In this document: piece by piece, positions 35,546 through 53,289 of the stretch
Numbering within the stretch: position 1 is the stretch's first letter
How the letters are laid out: every line of letters starts with the position of its first letter
NCBI GenBank assembly: GCA_038087875.1
Contig: CM075988.1
Span: 20,834,001-20,898,000, forward strand
DNA: 64,000 nt
Source of the DNA: Malacoraja senta
Lineage: Eukaryota
Reading direction: 5' to 3'
Notes under the pieces: generated by a model
Told to the model about the DNA's origin: nothing
The model's input: only the letters and a program-made list of their open reading frames with translations
Database searches by the model: none
Program-made: the position numbers and the translations under genes

Positions 35546-36545
35546 TCAACCCAGTGTAAACACATGCTGGATCTTGGCAGAGCCACATGTATTACAGGCA
35601 CCATAAGCCATTCCCTTCCACCCACTTCTTTCAAACACCTACAGTCTTTTACACTTGCCTCCAGCATTGTGACTGTACAATTATCATAATCAATCTGCAT
35701 GTTTCAACAGTCTAAAGACCTTATGAAGTTATCTTAACCATTCTGGGCTTTTGCCATTTAAAATCTTGTTCAACCATCTTTGAGTAATTTACTTTCATTT
35801 ACTGGAATAAAATTAATTTTGCTGCGTGTAACTTTATTTGGGGCACGGATAAGGTGAATAGCCACAGACTTTTCTCTCCAGGGTAATGGTGTTTAAAACC
35901 AGGTGAAAGGTGAGGGGGTGAAAGATTGAAAAGGGACCTGTGGGGCAACTTTTTCACACAGGGAGTGATATGGGGCAAGCTGCCAGAGGATGTGGTGGAG
36001 GTGTGTACAATGGCATTTAAAAGACACTAGGGCAGGTACGTGGATAGGACATATTTGGAGGGATATGGGGCAGGCACTGGCAAGTGGGACTAATTGATTG
36101 GCATGGACGAGTTGGGCAGTAAGGCCTGTTTCTATACTCTAGCTCCACGACTTAGCAGTGAAGTGTGAGAACACATCATAATGTGTTAATTTACCTGCTC
36201 CTAACTATTTCTAACTTTCTAATGTAAATATGATGACACCTTCAAAACCAAAGCACCCCCTTATCACAACATCTCAAACATGCAGACCACCAGACGATCA
36301 GTCTAAAAAAGGATCCTGACCCGAACCAATTCCTATCCATTCCTTCCACAGATGCTGCCTGGCCCATTGAGTTACTCCAGCACTTTATGTTCATCTCAAT
36401 CCTGGAACTGTGGCCAAAATAAAATGTTATTTTTCTTTCAGGCCCTGTAGTCAATGGTAAAGAGTCTTTCCTTTTCTAGAGGGAATTGAGAACATTTTGT
36501 TTCACTGAACAAATCTCTCATCTGCTGAATGCTGATTACTTCTGC

Positions 36546-38058
36546 GATGGTATACCTGGTCGTGTTCTAAAAACCTGTGCGTACCAACTGGCTGGAGTTT
36601 TTACGGACATTTTCAACCTCTCACTTCTGAGGTCTGAGGTTCCCACCTGCTTCAAAAGGGCATCAATTATACCAATGCCCAAGAAGAGTAAGGTGACGTG
36701 CCTCAATGACTATCGACCTGTGGCACTAACGCCTGTGGTGATGAAGTGCTTTGAGAGGTTGATCATGACGCAGATCAACTCCTACCTCGACAAAAACCTG
36801 GACCCACTGCAGTTCGCTTACCGCCACAACAGATCAACGGTGGATGCGATCTCGCTGGCCCTCCACTCCGCTCTGGACCACTTGGACAACAAAAACTCAT
36901 ATGTCAGGCTGTTATTCATCGATTACAGCTCGGCATTTAATACAATCATCTCCTCCAAGCTGGTTACCAAACTCGCAGAACTGGGTCTCTGCGCATCCCT
37001 CTGCAACTGGATCCTCGACTTCCTCACTCTCAGACCACAGTCTGTTCGTATTGGTGGAAATGAGTCGAAATGTTATCAGACTCGATAACAATCAGCACGG
37101 GAGCGCCACAAGGCTGCGTGCTCAGCCCCCTGCTGTACTCACTCTATACTCATGACTGTGTAGCCGGACATAGTGCGAGCGCCATCATCAAGTTCGCTGA
37201 TGACACCACTGTTGTGGGACGCATCACTGATGGGGATGTCAGAGTATAGAAGAGAGATCGAGCAACTGTCCATATGGTGCCAGCACAATAACCTGGCCCT
37301 CAACACCAGCAAAACCAAGGAACTGATTGTGGACTTTGGAAGGAGTAGGATGGGGACCCACAGTCCCGTTTATATCAACGGGTCGATGGTTGAAAGGGTC
37401 AAGAGCTTCAAATTCCTGGGCGTGCACATCTCTGAAGATCTTTCCTGGTCCGAGAACACTGATGCCATTATTAAGAAAGCACATCAGCGCCTCTACTTCC
37501 TGAGAAGATTACGGAGAGTCAGTATGTCAAGGAGGACTCTCTCTAACTTCTACAGGTGCACAGTAGAGAGCATGCTGACCGGTTGCATCGTGGCTTGGTT
37601 CGGCAACTTGAGCGCCCTGGAGAGGAAAAGACTACAAAAAGTAGTAAACACTGCCCAGTCCATCATCGGCTCTGACCTCCCTTCCATCGAGGGGATCTAT
37701 CACAGTCGCTGCCTCAAAAAGGCTGGCAGTATCATCAAGGACCCACACCATCCTGGCCACACACTCATCTCCCCGCTACCTTCAGGTAGAAGGTACAGGA
37801 GCCTGAAGACTGCAACGTCCAGGTTCAGGAACAGCTACTTCCCCACAGCCATCAGGCTATTAAACCTGGCTCGGACAAAACACTGAACTTTATTAGCCAA
37901 TACTGTTATTTGCACTTTATCAGTATATTGATTCATGTGTGTATATATTTATAGAATGCCTTGTGGTCAATGCCTACTATGTTCTGTTGTGCTGAAGCAA
38001 AGCAAGAATTTCATTGTCCTATCAGGGACACATGACAATAAACTCACTTGAACTTGAA
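36546..38058 (+). mobile_element. Rex1/Babar LINE, 5'-truncated, RT region with two frameshifts
   Basis: DGIPGRVLK...NDYRPVALT...[26 protein letters not shown] (37193-37204), C-terminus to 37886, 3' UTR and (aacttg)n tail; frameshifts near 37062-37085 and 37238. Confidence 0.95.
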
Positions 38059-38604
38059 TACATATTTTTGATGATTATTCAATGAAAATTTCTAATTGCC
38101 ATTCAGTGATAGGTTACAGTGACCTGTTCCAAGTGAATTAGTAATTCAGCACCATCAGTCATGGACTAACATCTTGTTTCATAGTCATATTGCTGTATCT
38201 ATCCTACTTAAGTCTGGCTTGATTGTATTTATGTATCATATAATCTGGTTTGGTTGAATAACATGCCAAACCACGTTTTTCACTGTACCTTGCTACACAT
38301 GACAATAAGAAACTTAAACCTAAGAAGCAGACCCTTCAGCCCATCAAGTCTATTGTGTATGGGTTCCTGATGGTCAGCATAGAGTTATATCATCGAGTCA
38401 TACAGCATGGAAACAGGCCTTTGCCCCAGCTTGCTCATGCCAACCAAGGTGCCCCACCTACACTAGTCCCACTGCCCACATTTGGCCCATATCCCACTAA
38501 ACCTTTCCCATCCATGTACCAGTCCAATGATCTTTTTTTTCTCTACATATTTCCATCAACTCCCCCCAGATTATTTCTAACTCTCGCACACGCACATGCA
38601 TGCC

Positions 38605-39975
38605 AACCCGACTTCGGAGCCTCGGAGGCTCGGCCGCGGGCCCAGTGGACTCGGCCGCGGACCCAGTGGACGACATCTTCGGGAGCTCGCAGGTCCCAGG
38701 TTGGTGACCGGTTCTCCGGAGCTCCCGCAACGACAGCTTCGTCCGCTGGACTGGAGGGTGGCAGCTTCGGCAGCTTCGACCGCCCCGGGCTGCGGACTCT
38801 GAACCGGCACGTTCGCGGAGCTCGGATTCGGCCTCTGGACTTACCATCGCCCGGCGGGGTCCCAACATCGGAAGCCTGGATCGCCTCAACGCAGAGGGAG
38901 AACAAGGAGGGAAGAGACAAGGATAGGCTGGGTGAGTGGGCAAATGTTTGGCAGATGTAGTATAATGTGGATAAATGTGAGGTTATCCATTTTGGTGGCA
39001 AAAACAGGAAAGCAGACTATTATCTAAATGGTGGCCGACTAGGAAAAGGGGAGATGCAGCGAGACCTGGGTGTCATGGTACACCAGTCATTGAAAGTAGG
39101 CATGCAGGTGCAGCAGGCAGTGAAGAAAGCGAATGGTATGTTAGCTTTCATAGCAAAAGGATTTGAGTATAGGAGCAGGGAGGTTCTACTGCAGTTGTAC
39201 AGGGTCTTGGTGAGACCACACCTGGAGTATTGCGTACAGTTTTGGTCTCCAAATCTGAGGAAGGACATTATTGCCATAGAGGGAGTGCAGAGAAGGTTCA
39301 CCAGACTGATTCCTGGGATGTCAGGACTGTCTTATGAAGAAAGACTGGATAGACTTGGTTTATACTCTCTAGAATTTAGGAGATTGAGAGGGGATCTTAT
39401 AGAAACTTACAAAATTCTTAAGGGGTTGGACAGGCTAGATGCAGGAAGATTGCTCCCGATGTTGGGGAAGTCCAGGACAAGGGGTCACAGCTTAAGGATA
39501 AGGGGGAAATCCTTTAAAACCGAGATGAGAAGAACTTTTTTCACACAGAGAGTGGTGAATCTCTGGAACTCTCTGCCACAGAGGGTAGTCAAGGCCAGTT
39601 CATTGGCTATATTTAAGAGGGAGATAGATGTGGCCCTTGTGGCTAAAGGGATCAGAGGGTATGGAGAGAAGGCAGGTACGGGATACTGAGTTGGATGATC
39701 AGCCATGATCATATTGAATGGCGGTGCAGGCTCGAAGGGCCGAATGGCCTACTCCTGCACCTAATTTCTATGTTTCTATGTTTCTATTAAGATTTTTGCC
39801 TTCCATCGCAGTGAGGAGGTGCCTGGTAGACTCACTGTGGTGGATGTTAGACTGTGTTAACTGTGTGTTTTGTTATTTTATTCTATGTTATGACTGCAAG
39901 GTATGTAATTTCGTTCAGACTGAAATGTCTGAATGACAACAAAGGATACTTTACTTTTTACTTTACTGTACTTTA
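38605..39975 (+). mobile_element. GC-rich non-autonomous retroposon split by a CR1 insertion
   Basis: CpG-rich body 38605-38921 (21-bp duplication 38629-38670) resumes at 39788; hairpin 39802-39844; 3' stem-loop gttcagac-tgaaat-gtctgaat-gacaa and (tactt)n tail; 5' boundary uncertain. Confidence 0.6.
38922..39787 (+). mobile_element. CR1/HER1-like LINE, 5'-truncated young copy (ORF2 C-terminal 240 aa open)
   Basis: ORF 38967-39689 KCEVIHFG...RDLGV...LVRPHLEYCVQFWSP...GYGEKAGTGY*; (tatgtttc)n tail. Confidence 0.95.
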
Positions 39976-48678: not shown

Positions 48679-49352
48679 TGGACACAAAATGCTGGAGTAA
48701 AGGGCCTGTCCCACTGTACGAGGTAATTCAAGAGCTCTCCCGAGTTTTAAAAAAATCAAACTCGTGGCAAGTACGTAGAATGTACGTAGCGACTACGTTG
48801 GAGCTCGTGGATGTCTCGTAGCGGCTCGTAATGCTAACGGCAGGTACTCGGGAAACGCGGTAACTCGTGAAGTTTTTTCAGCACTGTGAAAAATGTCCAC
48901 GAGAGCCCCGAGCACCTACGAATGGCTATTACCGTAATTTTCCGAGTTCGAATCAGGGGAAACTCGGGAGAACTCTTGAATTACCTATTACAGTGGGACA
49001 GGCCCTTAACTCTGCGGGTCAGGGAGCAACTCGATAGAAAAGGAATTGGTGATCTTTCATCCCGAGACCCTTCTTCAGACTGAGAGTCAGGGGAGAGGGA
49101 AACTAGACGTATGGAAAGGTATAGAACAAATCAGAGCAGGCACTGATGACCAAAGAGCCCACAATGGTCCATTGTTGGCTGTGGAGGAGGTGATAACAAG
49201 GGGCTGCGAGCAGTAAAACAAGCAGGACGACAAGGGTTGGGGAGGGACAGAGAGATGGAATGCAAGAGTTACTTGAAATTAGAGAAATCAATACTCATAC
49301 CGCTGGGTTGTAAGCTGTCCAAGCGAAATATGAGGTGCTGTTCCACCAATTT
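48679..49352 (-). mobile_element. PLE 3' part interrupted by a MITE
   Basis: EQHLIFRLDSLQPSGMSIDFSNFK* on the minus strand at about 49270-49345; pLTR split at gagtaa/taactc. Confidence 0.8.
48701..49006. mobile_element. MITE family B, second copy
   Basis: TIR agggcctgtcccactgtacgaggtaattcaagag; perfect TAA TSD inside the PLE; collinear with 17592-17907. Confidence 0.9.
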
Positions 49353-49750
49353 GTTTGTGTGCCCTCACTCTGGCATGCCTTCTGACATGAATTCCCAACA
49401 TGTCTGTTTGTTTCACAGAGTACCTCAACATTCACAGAGCACTGTACTGTTGTCCATCTGTTTGTTTCGATGAATTGGTAATTTGCCATTAAAAAAGCAT
49501 AAAATATTGAGATTTACTCCAACTCAATCAACATCTCAAAGAGAAAGATGGATTTGCACAGCAGAAGATCTTACATCAGAACTAGGTGTAGTTAGATACA
49601 ACTAGAACATATAGAATTGGCACAACTTTTGTCTCTCAAATCTAAATTACTTCCTGATGACCATGAATCAATCCGTTGCAAAACATAATTGTTGCAAATT
49701 GCGACAATACCCAGGTTGATTTTGGATGTGCTAGTCTTGTAGTAGAGTAA

Positions 49751-49978
49751 AGGGCCTGTCCCACTTGGGCGTCATTTGCGTGTCATTTACGCGACATCAT
49801 TTACGCGTCACGACGCACGCCGCACGCGTTGTGACGTGCACGTGATTTGCACATGGCGTGCATTACGCGCGCGTGGTGCGTGGTGACGTAGGCAGTGACG
49901 CGCGGTCACGCGCGCCGCCCCAGGATTTCGGGATTCACAAAATCTTCACGCGCCCCCTGCGCAAGTGGGACAGGCCCT
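49751..49978. mobile_element. MITE family A, second copy
   Basis: Same TIR and CpG-rich interior as 16900-17101; right TIR shortened; TSD not conserved. Confidence 0.85.
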
Positions 49979-50820
49979 TTGGAGTGTGGAAATAAAGGCC
50001 TGCAGATGCTGTTTAATACACAGGAGGACACAAAGCGCTGAAGTAACTCAGCAGGTCAGGCAGCATCTCTGGAGAAGATGGATAGGAGAAGTTTCTAGTC
50101 GAGACCCCTCTACAAACTGTCCTTCCGTATCTTTCTTTGTGGTGGAGATATGATACTGAAATGGCCGAAACATTTGGGACATAAAGAATAAAATGAGGTG
50201 GACACAAAATGCTGGAGTAACTCAGCGGGACAGGCAGCATCTCTGGAGAGAAGGAATGGGTGACATTTTGGGTCGAGACCCTTCTTCAGACTAAAAATGT
50301 CTTCTTCTAAAAGACCTTCTTCAGAATAAAATGTGGTTCTACTTCTATCTTGTGGTGTACCGAAACTCAGAGGTAAAACCAAAGTGGTAAACCTCCAGCT
50401 GTGCACTGCAGAAAGTGCCAGGAATTCATGTTAGAAGCCAAAGACTCAAACAAGCATACACTCCAGCTGCCAAACTTCTGATAAATGTTCCCTCCAGTAG
50501 ACAGAACTCCATGCCCAGTCCACAAAGACGATTGCTTCCACAAAGCCAAAACCATCTCACTCTCAAACATGGACACCTTATGTTATTGATTTCATAAGAG
50601 TTATAATTCCATTCAACCACTATTGATTAATAATATTATATTATCAATTTAATGTGACTATTGATTAGTTTAATTTAGTTTAGAGCTACTTCACGGAACC
50701 AGGCCCTTCGGCCCATCAAGTCCACACCGACCAGCGATCTCCGTGCACCAAGAGATTAATAGTGTCACTGCATTAATTAATTAATGGTCTTAATTATTGC
50801 AAGGCAGCACAGTGGCACAA

Positions 50821-50988
50821 GTTCTTCTTCTTATCGAGTCCACACACAAGATTAGAAGTTGTTCAGCCAGAGCTGAACACATTCTCGGCATCTGCATACA
50901 ATGGTGTCTGTCTTGTCGCTTCTTGTGCGTGGTGGTGGAAAGATTGGTGGAAACAGGGCCGCGACGTGAACGCTCTCTCCTTGACCCC
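50821..50988 (-). mobile_element. 168-bp non-autonomous retroposon with ribozyme head and (AAG)n tail
   Basis: TSD gtggcacaa at 50812-50820 and 50990-50998 (10 bp allowing one CpG change); 3' end gactcgat-aagaagaagaa; hairpin 50860-50879. Confidence 0.85.
50937..50988 (-). ncRNA. Putative minimal HDV-like self-cleaving ribozyme (no P4)
   Basis: P1 GGGGUC/GGCCCU with G1-U wobble; P2 GGAGAGA/UCUUUCC; P3 GCG/CGC; L3 UUCACGU; G for P1.1; J4/2 CCAA with candidate catalytic C at 50947. Confidence 0.75.
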
Positions 50989-51761
50989 GGTGGCACAACT
51001 GATAGAGTCACTGCCTCACAGCACCAGAGACCTGGGTTTGATCCTGACCTCCGTTGCAGTCTATGTGAAGTTCACACGTTCTCCCTGCTGCTTCCTGCCT
51101 TTGAAAATCGCCCCCAATGTGTTTGGAGTGGATGCGAAACTGGGATAACATAGAACCAGTGTGAACTGGTGTAGGAAGGAACTGCAGATGCTGGTTTAAG
51201 CTGAAGATAGACACGAAATGCTGGAGTCATTCAGCAGGACAGGCAGCATCTCTGGCGAGAAGGAATGGGCGATGTTTCGGGTCGAAACCTTCCAGTCTGA
51301 AGAAGGGTCTCGACCCGAAATGTCACCCATTCCTCCTCTCCAGAGATGCTGCCTGTCCCGCTGAGTTACTCCAGCACTTTGTGTCTATCAGGTGAATTAT
51401 GGAGGACAACAAGGGCTGAAGGGCCTGTTTTTCCATGGCTATATCTTCCAATCAATCAATCTTTAAAAATGAAATAGATTAGCAATGTTAGATTATTAGT
51501 CAATTACATGATAATGCAACCAACAATATATTAATATCATGGCGCAAATCACCAAAGCAGGGGGTTCTGTGGATTTTATTTTAATTGTATTAAGTTTTGA
51601 TGGACAAAGAATCTTCTTCAGACGCAAAGACCAAAAGTGTAGAGATCGGTTTGCATTATTATGTCATACAATGAATGATCAATGGGCTGTATAACAAATT
51701 ATTTAATCCCCAGCGTTAAATAATGTATGGAATTTAAGCACAATGGAATTAATTTTATCCT

Positions 51762-52212
51762 TTGACGGATCATTTGTCAGCACTGGGCCTGTACTCGCTG
51801 GAGTTTATGAGGGGGGACCTCGTTGAAATGAACAGAATAGAAAAAGACTTGGATAGAGTGGATGTGGAGAGGATGTTTCCACTAGTGTTGGAGTCTTGGA
51901 CTAGAGGTCATAGCCTCAGAATTAAAGGACGTTATTTAAGGAAAGAGATGAGGAGGAATTTCTTTAGTCACAGGGTGGTGAATCCGTGGAATTCTTTGCC
52001 GCCGAAGGCTGTGGAGGCCGAGTCAGTGGATATATTTAAGGCAAAGATAGATAGATGCTTGATTAGTACAGGTGTCAGAGGTTAAGGGGAGAAGGCAGGA
52101 GAATGGGGTTAGGAGGGAGAGATAGATCAAACATTATTGAATGGTGGAGTAAACTTGTTGGCTGAATGGCCTAATTCTACTACTATCTCTTGTGATCTTA
52201 TAATCTTATGAT
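51762..52212 (+). mobile_element. CR1-like LINE 3' fragment
   Basis: ORF 51762-52085 LGLYSLEF...TRGHSLRIKG...WNSLP. Confidence 0.9.
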
Positions 52213-52404
52213 CCTGAATAATTTATGAATTGGTGGCAGCCTTGTAAATACGTTTTTCTGACTTGTCATGTGTTCCATTTAGAGTCATAGTGTGGAAACA
52301 GGCCATTCAGCCCAACTTGCCCACATCGGCCAACATGTCCCAGCTACACTAGCCCCACCTGCCCGCGTTTGATCCATATCCCTACAAACCTGTCCTGTCC
52401 ACAT

Positions 52405-52576
52405 TTCACATGTCGCGGGGTAACGCCTGTTTGGTCGTGAGTGGTCGCCCATAGAGTCGTACCTTTTTCTGGTCGCCGTTGGATTTTCAACATCTTTAAC
52501 ATTTTCAGCGACCCGCTGCGACCATGACGGGTGCCGGCAAGTCGCCGAAAAAATCGCGTAAGTGGGGACAGGCCCT
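52405..52576. mobile_element. Partial MITE family C (right end only)
   Basis: Ends aagtggggacaggccct followed by TAA; shares gattttcaacat with family B. Confidence 0.7.
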
Positions 52577-53289
52577 TAAGTGGCATTTAAAAGACTTTTG
52601 GATAGGCACATGGATATGCAGAGAATGGATGGATATGGCTTATGTAAAGGTAAATAAGTGATGGTCTTGGCATCAAGTTTGGCACCAAAGAGCCTGTTCA
52701 TGTGTTGCTCTGTTTTATGATCTATGTTTAAAATACTGGAGCACTATTGTACAAGACATTGATGTGACCACATTTAGAGTATTGTGTTCAGTTTTGGTCA
52801 CACTGTTATAGGAATATGATGTTGTTGATCTGGAATGGATGCTGAGATTGATGAGGATGTTGCCATCAAGTCCACTCCGCCATTCAATCATGGCTGATCT
52901 ATCTTTCCCTCTCAACCCCATTCTCCTGCCTTCTCCCCGTAACCCCTGACACCCGTACTGATCAAGAATCTGTCAATCTCCGCCTTAACAATATCAATTG
53001 ACATTGGCTTTACAGCCCTCTGTGGCAATGAATTCCACAGCCTCACCACCCTCTAACCGAAGAAATGTCCTTTCTGTGCTGATGTTCGTGTTGGTCAGTT
53101 TGGAATTGCATCTCCTTGGGTCTTTGATCGTATTACTTCCATAACCGTGATGGAACAAGGGAACAGGAGGTGATCATTCCACATCTTGCCATCAGATGCC
53201 AAGACCAAAACTGAAGAAATCTCCCTGCACCACCAGTTAATGAGATTACGGTTAATCTGTTACAATCCGCTTAACTCTGTTCCACGTTG

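What the first reader, a model, noticed from the sequence alone, without database searches (positions are those of the whole stretch)
50821..50988. 168-bp retroposon headed by a minimal HDV-like ribozyme with a CPEB3-like core
Seen: on the minus strand the insert begins GGGGUC-AA-GGAGAGA-GCG-UUCACGU-CGC-GGCCCU-G-UUUCCA-CCAA-UCUUUCC. This forms the HDV nested double pseudoknot: 6-bp P1 with G1-U wobble, 7-bp P2, 3-bp P3, 7-nt L3, single P1.1 G, C-N-A-A J4/2, with P4 replaced by a 6-nt linker (52 nt total). G1 (50988) is exactly the element's 5' end if the TSD is taken as 10 bp with one CpG decay (50811-50820 / 50989-50998). The element ends in an 8-bp hairpin and an (AAG)n tail and has no tRNA, 5S or 7SL head. 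Known: HDV-like ribozymes process the 5' ends of R2, RTE and ingi/L1Tc-type retrotransposons; as I recall it, the P3-L3-P3 sequence GCGUUCACGUCGC is the same in the mammalian CPEB3 ribozyme. Inference: a SINE-like family that cuts itself out of read-through transcripts and is mobilised by a Vingi/RTE-type LINE, possibly informative about the origin of CPEB3-type ribozymes.
Basis: partly seen in the sequence, partly recalled or inferred. Interest (0 to 1): 0.92.

Follow-up and report, generated by a model that had tools for sequence, protein, structure and literature searches.

The report
Ribozyme-headed short retroposon, CPEB3-type core
A 168-base piece of jumping DNA begins exactly at the cutting site of a stripped-down self-cutting RNA of the same type as the mammalian CPEB3 ribozyme, and its relatives in this genome may show where that mammalian ribozyme came from.

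Summary
Window 50821-50988 (-) is one copy of a young, high-copy short retroposon. An exact 30-mer of it occurs 683 times in the genome.

- **5' end:** 32 of 35 independent copies start with GGGG, at G1 of the proposed fold. 21 of 35 have an exact direct repeat of 7 nt or more.
- **Ribozyme:** the first 52 nt form a P4-less HDV-type double pseudoknot. Rfam's CPEB3 model scores the window copy 24.3 bits, below the cut-off of 35, and a sister copy 43.7 bits.
- **Relatives:** the genome also holds P4-bearing CPEB3-type ribozymes (up to 64 bits). They head a 3.15-kb RTE-like LINE and three old short families.
- **Pairing:** across these families 90.5% of cells pair, against 35-47% for slid controls. 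P2 shows compensatory changes between the LINE and the short element.
- **Likely partner:** the LINE ends in the same (AAG)n tail and matches the short element at 17 of its last 19 nt.

Self-cleavage itself is untested, and no RNA data were usable.

It is a new variant of a known kind, a ribozyme-processed non-LTR retroposon. The bolder lead is that one old family resembles the mammalian CPEB3 ribozyme even in P4. That ribozyme is reported as unknown outside mammals (PMC8233481).

The parts
50989..50998 (-). 5' copy of the target-site duplication (TTGTGCCACC)
   Evidence: a 9-nt exact repeat plus one C/T difference at a CpG.
50821..50988 (-). The whole 168-bp non-autonomous retroposon copy
   Evidence: 40 of 40 scored genomic matches are 96-100% identical over the full length; 683 and 599 exact words for its 5' and 3' parts.
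50937..50988 (-). 52-nt P4-less HDV-like (CPEB3-type) ribozyme fold. G1 = 50988 is the predicted cleavage site, immediately 5' of it.
   Evidence: RF00622, 24.3 bits; sister copy 43.7 bits; pair counts.
50983..50988 (-). P1 5' strand (GGGGUC), pairing with 50955-50960
   Evidence: helix 1: 85.8% of cells paired, 2 pairs with double changes.
50974..50980 (-). P2 5' strand (GGAGAGA; family consensus has A at the fourth letter), pairing with 50937-50943
   Evidence: helix 2: 93.5% paired, 4 of 7 pairs with changes on both sides.
50961..50973 (-). P3-L3-P3' (GCG UUCACGU CGC), letter-identical to the Rfam CPEB3 consensus
   Evidence: alignment.
50955..50960 (-). P1 3' strand (GGCCCU)
50948..50954 (-). 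G35 (single P1.1 partner of the L3 C) plus the 6-nt linker that replaces P4
   Evidence: alignment: 24 gap columns (41-64) where families A-D carry the inner pairs and the loop of P4; the P1.1 pair is invariant in 22 of 22 sequences.
50944..50947 (-). J4/2 CCAA. C at 50947 aligns with the catalytic C of CGAA in the P4-bearing relatives and in the CPEB3 consensus.
50937..50943 (-). P2 3' strand (UCUUUCC)
50860..50879 (-). 8-bp hairpin with a 4-nt loop in the element body
50822..50840 (-). 3'-terminal 19 nt including the (AAG)n tail; 17 of 19 identical to the 3' terminus of the RTE-like LINE
50811..50820 (-). 3' copy of the target-site duplication (TTGTGCCACT)

Best explanation
The insert is one copy of a recently amplified, non-autonomous non-LTR retroposon with no RNA polymerase III head.

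Its first 52 nt are a minimal, P4-less HDV-like self-cleaving ribozyme of the CPEB3 sequence type. The element has no recognisable promoter of its own, so it is probably transcribed as part of longer host or read-through transcripts. The ribozyme then cuts immediately 5' of G1. This gives the RNA a defined 5' end, so every full-length cDNA copy begins at GGGG.

The 3' end (...GACTCGATAAG(AAG)n) is recognised and reverse-transcribed at a nicked target by the protein of a 3.15-kb RTE-like LINE in the same genome. That LINE starts with a P4-bearing ribozyme of the same type and ends in nearly the same 19 nt and tail. Insertion leaves 7-12-bp target-site duplications.

Shown:
- the family, its boundaries, the duplications and the tail;
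- homology of the fold with Rfam-scoring ribozymes;
- covariation of the helices;
- existence of the LINE and the termini it shares with the short element.

Inferred:
- catalytic activity of the P4-less form;
- co-transcription with host sequence;
- this LINE, rather than a relative, being the mobiliser.
For: **Family and boundaries**
- 1846 first-look candidates; 40 of 40 scored matches are 96-100% identical, and 38 of 40 start at query position 1-2.
- Exact-word counts are 683 (5' part) and 599 (3' part) against 0 for reversed controls. Copies are therefore mostly full length.
- 32 of 35 independent copies begin with GGGG. 21 of 35 have an exact direct repeat of 7 nt or more, and 16 of those abut G1 directly.
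- Contigs of other organisms break off at 50988.

**Ribozyme**
- RF00622 scores the window copy 24.3 bits and sister copy L055 43.7 bits, above the cut-off of 35.
- In the genome, 39 of 60 listed RF00622 matches are over the cut-off, the best at 64.2 bits. None of 14 control genomes reaches it.
- On 22 sequences from five families, 90.5% of cells pair, against 35-47% when partners are slid. 14 pairs have changes on both sides, against 1-5 for slid controls. 0 of 500 shuffles reach the observed values.
- P2 of the short element differs from P2 of the LINE by three compensated pairs.
- An older subfamily, with one more C in P1' and 9 nt more in the body, keeps the fold.
- The experimentally active minimal ribozyme drz-Mtgn-1 (sequence printed in the Methods of PMC10879173) has, on my reading, the same layout: 6-bp P1 with G-U, 2-nt J1/2, 6-bp P2, 3-bp P3, 7-nt L3, a single G, a 7-nt linker and C-N-A-A. 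Its P3-L3-P3 differs at 1 of 13 letters.
- The centroid fold of the full RNA leaves nt 1-45 free.

**Partner**
- L043 carries a 934-aa ORF with Exo_endo_phos and RVT_1 domains. It starts 27 nt after the ribozyme, in an element of about 3.15 kb.
- Other copies are 97-98% identical.
- The LINE has an 11-nt target-site duplication and an (AAG)n tail.
- The short element and the LINE agree at 32 of 37 aligned columns (3 of them gaps) over the first 36 nt, and at 17 of the last 19 nt.
- LINE word counts are 10 (5') against 143 (3'), the usual pattern of 5' truncation.
Against: - No cleavage assay and no RNA 5'-end data. All runs that hold the element are contigs, and none is on record as RNA.
- The window copy itself is below Rfam's cut-off.
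- In the older subfamily, G1 would pair with C rather than U.
- Inserted young copies show no clear constraint on the ribozyme: 1.44% against 1.96% divergence from consensus, in a sample biased towards the best hits. This is expected for dead-on-arrival copies, so it gives no positive support either.
- Outside the two termini, the 168-bp body has no similarity to the LINE.
- Only 1 of 4 full-length LINE copies examined keeps the whole ORF.
- The clade of the LINE was judged from its architecture and from unnamed homologs. It was not placed on a tree.
Confidence: 0.8

Rival explanations
1. The ribozyme-like head is an inactive relic inherited from a LINE ancestor. On this view the uniform 5' end comes from something else. 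One option is that the first 50 nt act at the DNA level as an internal promoter starting at +1, as reported for Pr77 of L1Tc/NARTc. Another is that a few master copies sit behind a fixed start site.
For: - P4 is missing, and the window copy scores under Rfam's cut-off.
- No activity data exist.
- In L1Tc/NARTc the same 77 nt are reported to be both promoter and ribozyme (PMC3383444, abstract seen).
- Young copies show no significant sparing of the ribozyme.
Against: - The fold is kept in two subfamilies.
- P2 differs from the LINE's P2 by compensated changes only. That implies selection for pairing after P4 was lost or in parallel with its loss.
- The layout equals that of a P4-less ribozyme shown to be active.
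- The start coincides to the base with the cleavage site of the fold in 32 of 35 copies.
Confidence: 0.13
2. The element is real and ribozyme-headed, but it is mobilised by another LINE than the 3.15-kb RTE-like family found here. Candidates are an unsampled RTE relative or a different clade with AAG-type tails.
For: - Shared 3' sequence is only 19 nt, with 17 identical.
- The body and the hairpin have no counterpart in the LINE.
- The post-ribozyme sequence (ACCAC...) resembles the old short families B-D more than the LINE.
- Only the best candidates of genome searches are scored, so other LINE families may have been missed.
Against: - The LINE found is the only autonomous element seen with this ribozyme type.
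- It is young (97-98% identity between copies), like the short element.
- One copy has an intact ORF.
- It carries the same tail repeat at the same terminal position.
- The 3' word of the short element is no more frequent than its 5' word (599 against 683). No abundant LINE therefore shares that 3' end exactly.
Confidence: 0.2
3. The fit to the HDV/CPEB3 fold is a chance resemblance in an ordinary repeat.
For: The 13-nt core, with up to 2 mismatches allowed, is found in 27 of 100 shuffled windows.
Against: - The match is exact and extends over P1, P2 and J4/2.
- Sister copies and four related families reach 35-64 bits on a model built from mammalian sequences only. None of 14 control genomes does.
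- The pair counts far exceed the slid and shuffled controls.
Confidence: 0.01

Closest known systems
HDV-like ribozymes at the 5' ends of non-LTR retrotransposons (R2, RTE, Baggins, L1Tc)
   Same: A double-pseudoknot ribozyme forms the first nucleotides of the element, and cleavage immediately upstream defines the 5' end of a co-transcript. RTE elements without promoters of their own are named among the carriers (review PMC6765202, passages seen; PMC8256844, passages seen). The 3.15-kb LINE found here fits this description.
   Different: Here the ribozyme has the CPEB3 sequence type, which I found described only for a mammalian intron. The element in the window is a 168-bp ORF-less derivative whose ribozyme lacks P4. 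The primary paper (Ruminski et al. 2011) was not held, so I could not check which vertebrate RTEs it covers.
NARTc of Trypanosoma cruzi, and internally deleted R2 derivatives (the latter recalled, not checked)
   Same: These are non-autonomous elements that keep their LINE's 5' ribozyme and 3' end and use the LINE's machinery (NARTc: PMC3383444, abstract seen).
   Different: - The host is a vertebrate and the partner is RTE-like.
- The body is unrelated to the LINE.
- The ribozyme is reduced to 52 nt.
- Copy number is in the high hundreds or more.
Mammalian CPEB3 ribozyme (Rfam RF00622)
   Same: P3-L3-P3'-P1' are letter-identical to the model consensus, and J4/2 and the P2 layout are the same. 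Relatives in this genome reach 35-64 bits. Family C also shares the P4 strands and the P2 sequence with one compensated pair. Counted by hand on the alignments, it is about 78-85% identical to the consensus.
   Different: - It is not a single conserved intronic locus but the head of mobile elements.
- None of the scored hits lies on a contig region with a CPEB-type ZZ domain.
- The window copy lacks P4 and scores under the cut-off.
Minimal (P4-less) HDV-like ribozymes: drz-Mtgn-1 and the phage theta ribozymes
   Same: Segment by segment the layout is the same, and P3-L3-P3 is nearly the same (PMC10879173, passages and the Methods sequence seen). Those ribozymes are active in vitro and are inactivated by C-to-U at the first J4/2 position.
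   Different: Those are found in phage genomes beside tRNA genes. This one is eukaryotic, heads a retroposon and has no tRNA next to it. The shared core may reflect functional constraint rather than descent.
Hammerhead-bearing SINE-like elements of schistosomes, and retrozymes
   Same: They are short non-autonomous retroelements that carry a self-cleaving ribozyme (PMC6765202, passages seen).
   Different: - The ribozyme class is different.
- Those are polymerase III-driven or form circular RNAs.
- Cleavage there resolves multimers rather than trimming a 5' leader.

Membership tests
HDV-like (double-pseudoknot) self-cleaving ribozymes | P1 starting at the cleavage-site nucleotide and closed by a G-U (or G-C) pair, nested with P3/L3 | tested here: met
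   P1 cells are 85.8% paired and P3 cells 92.4%. G1-U34 is present in the window copy.
HDV-like (double-pseudoknot) self-cleaving ribozymes | P2 pseudoknot between the segment after J1/2 and the 3' end | tested here: met
   93.5% paired; 4 of 7 pairs have changes on both sides; slid controls give 35-47% overall.
HDV-like (double-pseudoknot) self-cleaving ribozymes | P1.1 contact and a catalytic C as the first nucleotide of J4/2 (C-N-A-A) | tested here: met
   the C at 50947 aligns with the C of CGAA in all P4-bearing relatives; the P1.1 C-G pair is invariant in 22 of 22, which says nothing either way about pairing.
HDV-like (double-pseudoknot) self-cleaving ribozymes | Mg2+-dependent self-scission 5' of G1 | not testable with these tools
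Rfam RF00622, CPEB3_ribozyme | Score at or above the gathering cut-off of 35 bits | tested here: not met
   The window copy scores 24.3 bits. Other copies of the same family score up to 43.7 bits, and related families up to 64.2 bits. The family as a whole straddles the cut-off.
Rfam RF00622, CPEB3_ribozyme | A single conserved locus in an intron of the CPEB3 gene of mammals | tested here: not met
   The sequence occurs in hundreds of dispersed copies. CPEB-type ZZ-domain exons lie on other contigs or megabases away from the scored hits.
Minimal HDV-like ribozymes (drz-Mtgn-1 type) | P4 replaced by a short unpaired linker, with the rest of the core kept | tested here: met
   a 6-nt linker against 7 nt in drz-Mtgn-1; the other segment lengths are equal or differ by one.
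Theta ribozymes | Location directly downstream of a phage tRNA gene | tested here: not met
   No tRNA in 50600-51300; the context is a eukaryotic repeat.
SINE in the strict sense | 5' head derived from tRNA, 5S or 7SL RNA with an internal polymerase III promoter | tested here: not met
   there is no such match. The element is better called a ribozyme-headed non-autonomous retroposon.
LINE-dependent retroposon | Target-site duplications, a 3' tail shared with a LINE, and many dispersed copies | tested here: met
   21 of 35 with an exact repeat of 7 nt or more; 17 of 19 terminal nt.
RTE clade (for the partner LINE) | An element of about 3.2 kb with a single ORF carrying an AP-endonuclease and a reverse transcriptase, a short 3' UTR and a microsatellite-like tail | tested here: met
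   Microsatellite-like tails of RTE LINEs and SINEs: PMC6007223, abstract seen.
RTE clade (for the partner LINE) | Phylogenetic placement of the reverse transcriptase within RTE | not tested
   No named reference sequences were at hand. Homologs of 50-60% identity across metazoa, on contigs of about 3.2 kb, carry no clade names.

The most novel reading that the evidence does not exclude
The mammalian CPEB3 ribozyme is a domesticated copy of the 5' ribozyme of this retroposon lineage.

The genome carries a whole radiation of elements headed by CPEB3-type ribozymes: an RTE-like LINE, the old short families B, C and D, and the P4-less 168-bp family. Family C matches the mammalian consensus even in the freely variable P4 and P2 helices. 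A copy of this kind that landed in the CPEB3 intron of an early mammal would explain a ribozyme that so far has no outgroup.

The 168-bp family would also be the first natural eukaryotic P4-less HDV-like ribozyme with a clear job.
Probability: 0.5. Interest if true: 0.88.

Novelty: new variant of a known kind. Interest (0 to 1): 0.75.

Why it matters
[quoted passage not shown] This genome holds dozens to hundreds of sequences that a model built from mammalian sequences alone scores above its cut-off, and they sit at the heads of retrotransposons. That yields outgroups and a concrete, testable origin by exaptation of a retroposon.

**P4-less HDV-like ribozymes.** They have been placed only in phages, and their wider origin was called open (PMC10879173, passage seen). 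Here one heads a successful vertebrate retroposon. This gives a natural experiment on how little of the fold is needed in vivo.

**How short retroposons get their start.** The element shows a way for a short retroposon to spread without a polymerase III head.

**Limits on novelty.** My searches of the held library found no paper linking CPEB3-type ribozymes to retrotransposon heads or to cartilaginous fishes. Ruminski et al. 2011 and Webb et al. 2009 could not be read, so the claim of novelty is provisional.

Tried and rejected
- **RNA evidence.** No RNA holder was listed among 22 runs. All runs are Logan contigs, which cannot show starts of molecules. Nothing can be said on expression or cleavage in vivo.
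- **An orthologous intronic CPEB3 ribozyme in this genome.** The CPEB-type ZZ domain (PF16366) hits C2259, C2128, C15:8.16 Mb and C17:7.68 Mb. None of the scored RF00622 hits lies near them. Only 59 of about 102,000 first-look candidates were scored, so this is weak.
- **More copies of families C and D.** Only 4 and 10 matches were found, at 79-95% identity to the query (own locus left out). These families are old and low in copy number, and their 3' ends and duplications could not be fixed.
- **Similarity of the element body to the LINE.** None beyond the two termini.
- **Taxon.** No host gene was found among 12 long ORFs of the window; only a LINE fragment turned up. The protein atlas gave no class-level taxon. 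That the genome is not mammalian is inferred only from the absence of any RF00622 hit above 64 bits.
- **Earlier notes of this scan.** Nothing on this genome or sequence. Two notes on other genomes were unrelated to this case.
- **Selection on the ribozyme among inserted copies.** No significant difference: 18 of 1248 against 53 of 2704 changed positions, in a sample biased to the best hits.
- **Other Rfam HDV-type models.** No match in 49000-53000 at E<=10.

Full report
**1. What is at the coordinates**

Read on the minus strand from 50988, the insert begins GGGGUCAAGGAGAGAGCGUUCACGUCGCGGCCCUGUUUCCACCAAUCUUUCC. It ends in an 8-bp hairpin (element 110-129) and ...GACTCGATAAGAAGAAGAAC.

It is flanked by TTGTGCCACC (50989-50998) and TTGTGCCACT (50811-50820).
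- P1: 1-6 with 29-34
- P2: 9-15 with 46-52
- P3: 16-18 with 26-28
- a single P1.1 G
- C-C-A-A before P2'

An Rfam scan of 49000-53000 at E<=10 gave one ribozyme match, the mammalian CPEB3 model. It covers 50937-51000(-) at 24.3 bits, under the cut-off of 35, with E 0.0028. In that alignment the P3-L3-P3'-P1' run is letter-identical to the consensus.

No tRNA, 5S, 7SL or other HDV-type model matched.

The 13-nt core alone is not beyond chance at two mismatches: 27 of 100 shuffles give a hit. The case therefore rests on what follows.

**2. It is a family, with its 5' end at G1**

The window's own genome is 1.94 Gb.
- The 168-bp query gave 1846 first-look candidates. All 40 that were scored are 96-100% identical, and 38 of 40 start at query position 1 or 2.
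- Exact-word counts are 683 for a 30-mer spanning the linker, P2' and the start of the body, and 599 for a 24-mer at the 3' end. Reversed controls gave 0. Copies are therefore mostly full length.

I dropped four loci whose flanks are identical to another locus (L003, L007, L010, L029). I also left out L057, whose 3' part is replaced. That left 35 independent copies.
- 32 of 35 begin with GGGG.
- 21 of 35 have an exact direct repeat of 7 nt or more.
- In 16 of those 21 the repeat abuts G1 directly.
- Several more have repeats with one mismatch.

Contigs of four public runs from other coded organisms also diverge from the window exactly at 50988: 194 loose ends in X1 and 14 in X16. The element's share of the query words is held by runs under seven organism codes and eleven studies.

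The 26 best copies lie 1.4-2.0% from their consensus (a sample biased towards the best hits). The consensus has A at position 12, which makes P2 fully Watson-Crick. The window's G12 is shared by 2 of 26 copies.

An older subfamily of about 177 bp has one more C in P1' and a 9-nt repeat in the body. It keeps the fold.

**3. The ribozyme is homologous to P4-bearing ribozymes that pass the CPEB3 model**

Searching the genome with RF00622 gave 60 listed matches, of which 39 are over the cut-off and the best scores 64.2 bits. None of 14 control genomes reaches the cut-off.

The hits fall into families (my labels):

| Family | What it is | RF00622 score |
|---|---|---|
| A | head of a LINE | 57-64 bits |
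| B | short element with a long P4 | 51-60 bits |
| C | 4-5 old copies | 43-51 bits |
| D | about 10 old copies with a short P4 | 38-46 bits |
| 168/177-bp family | further copies of the window's element | up to 43.7 bits |

I aligned 22 real copies from all five groups and wrote the double pseudoknot out by hand. Results:
- 90.5% of cells pair, against 35-47% with partners slid by 1-3 columns.
- 14 of 26 pairs show changes on both sides, against 1-5 for slid controls.
- No shuffle of 500 reaches the observed pairing or covariation.
- P2 has 4 of 7 compensated pairs. The short element's GGAAAGA/UCUUUCC differs from the LINE's GGUAGAA/UUCUACC at three pairs, each compensated.

This compensation argues that P2' in the P4-less form is a maintained partner and not a leftover. 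In the alignment the short element has 24 gap columns (41-64) where the others carry the inner pairs and the loop of P4.

**4. Can a P4-less form work?**

Minimal HDV-like ribozymes without P4 are known and active in vitro (PMC10879173, passages seen).

That paper's Methods print the sequence of drz-Mtgn-1. Read by eye, it has the same layout segment by segment:
- 6-bp P1 closed by G-U
- 2-nt J1/2
- 6-bp P2
- 3-bp P3
- 7-nt L3
- one G
- a 7-nt linker
- C-N-A-A

Its P3-L3-P3 differs from ours at one of 13 letters.

A 2-nt J1/2 is also what families A-D have. Spacers of 0-1 nt are reported as inactive or poor (PMC4908430, passage seen).

The centroid fold of the whole 168-nt RNA leaves nt 1-45 unpaired.

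I rate activity as likely but unproven.

**5. The partner**

Downstream of a family A ribozyme, locus L043 has a 934-aa ORF that starts 27 nt after P2'. It carries AP-endonuclease and reverse-transcriptase domains.

The element is about 3.15 kb. It ends ...GACACGAAAAGAAGAAGAAG and has an 11-nt target-site duplication. Three further copies are 97-98% identical, but only 1 of 4 keeps the full ORF.

Word counts are 10 for its 5' end and 143 for its 3' end. This is the usual 5' truncation of LINEs and contrasts with the short element.

Homologs at 50-60% identity occur across metazoa on contigs of about 3.2 kb.

Size, single ORF, domain order and microsatellite-like tail are those of the RTE clade (tails: PMC6007223, abstract seen). 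I did not place the LINE on a tree, and 'Vingi' was not tested.

The short element agrees with the LINE at 32 of 37 aligned columns (3 of them gaps) over the first 36 nt, and at 17 of the last 19 nt including the tail. Nothing in between is similar.

Many duplications begin with A, which fits priming on the AAG tail.

**6. Mechanism proposed**

1. The element is co-transcribed with flanking sequence.
2. The ribozyme cuts before G1.
3. The LINE protein recognises the 3' terminus and tail.
4. Reverse transcription is primed at the nicked target and runs to the cleaved 5' end.
5. Insertion leaves 7-12-bp duplications.

The anatomy and the family relations are shown. The first three steps are inferred from the known role of HDV-like ribozymes in R2, RTE, Baggins and L1Tc elements (PMC6765202 and PMC8256844, passages seen).

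**7. Comparison and novelty**

Ribozyme-processed LINEs and some non-autonomous derivatives (NARTc) are known, so the kind is not new. Three things are new as far as I could find:
- the CPEB3 sequence type at retrotransposon heads in a genome that is evidently not mammalian (no hit above 64 bits; the taxon itself was not established);
- a natural eukaryotic P4-less version in high copy number;
- a successful short retroposon with no polymerase III head.

Family C is 78-85% identical to the Rfam consensus by my hand count on the alignments. The match includes both P4 strands and P2 with one compensated pair, whereas families A, B and D have unrelated P4 sequences. P4 is free to vary, so this points to common descent rather than convergence.

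The P3-L3 core alone does not point that way, because a phage ribozyme shares it too.

No scored hit lies near a CPEB-type gene in this genome.

Library searches found no paper making the link. Two key papers were not held.

**8. Verdict**

The element is a new variant of a known kind, with a testable lead on the origin of the CPEB3 ribozyme. The main gap is the lack of any cleavage or RNA-end data.

Noticed in passing
L043:99-3241 (G000:C1:217550498-217553640); also L044, L045, L052: A young RTE-like LINE of 3.15 kb, headed by a P4-bearing CPEB3-type ribozyme (57-64 bits on RF00622). It has one intact 934-aa ORF among the 4 full-length copies examined and an (AAG)n tail.
   Followed up: yes
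L042/L048, L049, L051, L056, L059 (family C); L050, L053, L058, L060 (family D); L035/L046, L039/L047 (family B): Old, low-copy elements of about 95-115 nt. Each consists of a CPEB3-type ribozyme plus an ACCAC-rich stub, and copies diverge after that. Family C resembles the mammalian consensus even in P4. Their 3' ends, tails and mobilising LINE are not settled.
   Followed up: partly
window 50989-51050 and 50700-50820: The 168-bp element sits inside another, far more abundant repeat. Contig depth at 51011-51048 exceeds that of the element in all four runs, and many contigs join about 50819/50820 to about 51004-51025 with 10-19 other letters between, i.e. uninterrupted copies of the host repeat.
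   Followed up: no
window 36480-39689 (+): A fragment of a different LINE: ORF pieces with RVT_1 and an ALKBH8_N-type C-terminal motif. It is unrelated to the RTE-like family.
   Followed up: no
L041 (G000:C8:937615-937735): A rearranged 5' end of the RTE-like LINE, with a partial second copy of the P3-L3 core just upstream of the ribozyme.
   Followed up: no
L002/L003, L006/L007, L009/L010, L028/L029: Pairs of element copies with identical flanks at different places or contigs (for example C6:40.74 Mb and 40.88 Mb; C1:345.73 Mb and 345.80 Mb). These are segmental duplications or unmerged haplotigs. I counted each pair once.
   Followed up: no
G000:C1:5036772-5037209: The 5' word and the 3' word of the element lie 414 nt apart here, against about 98-117 nt in other copies. 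This is either a copy with an insertion or a longer variant that might bridge to a parent element.
   Followed up: no
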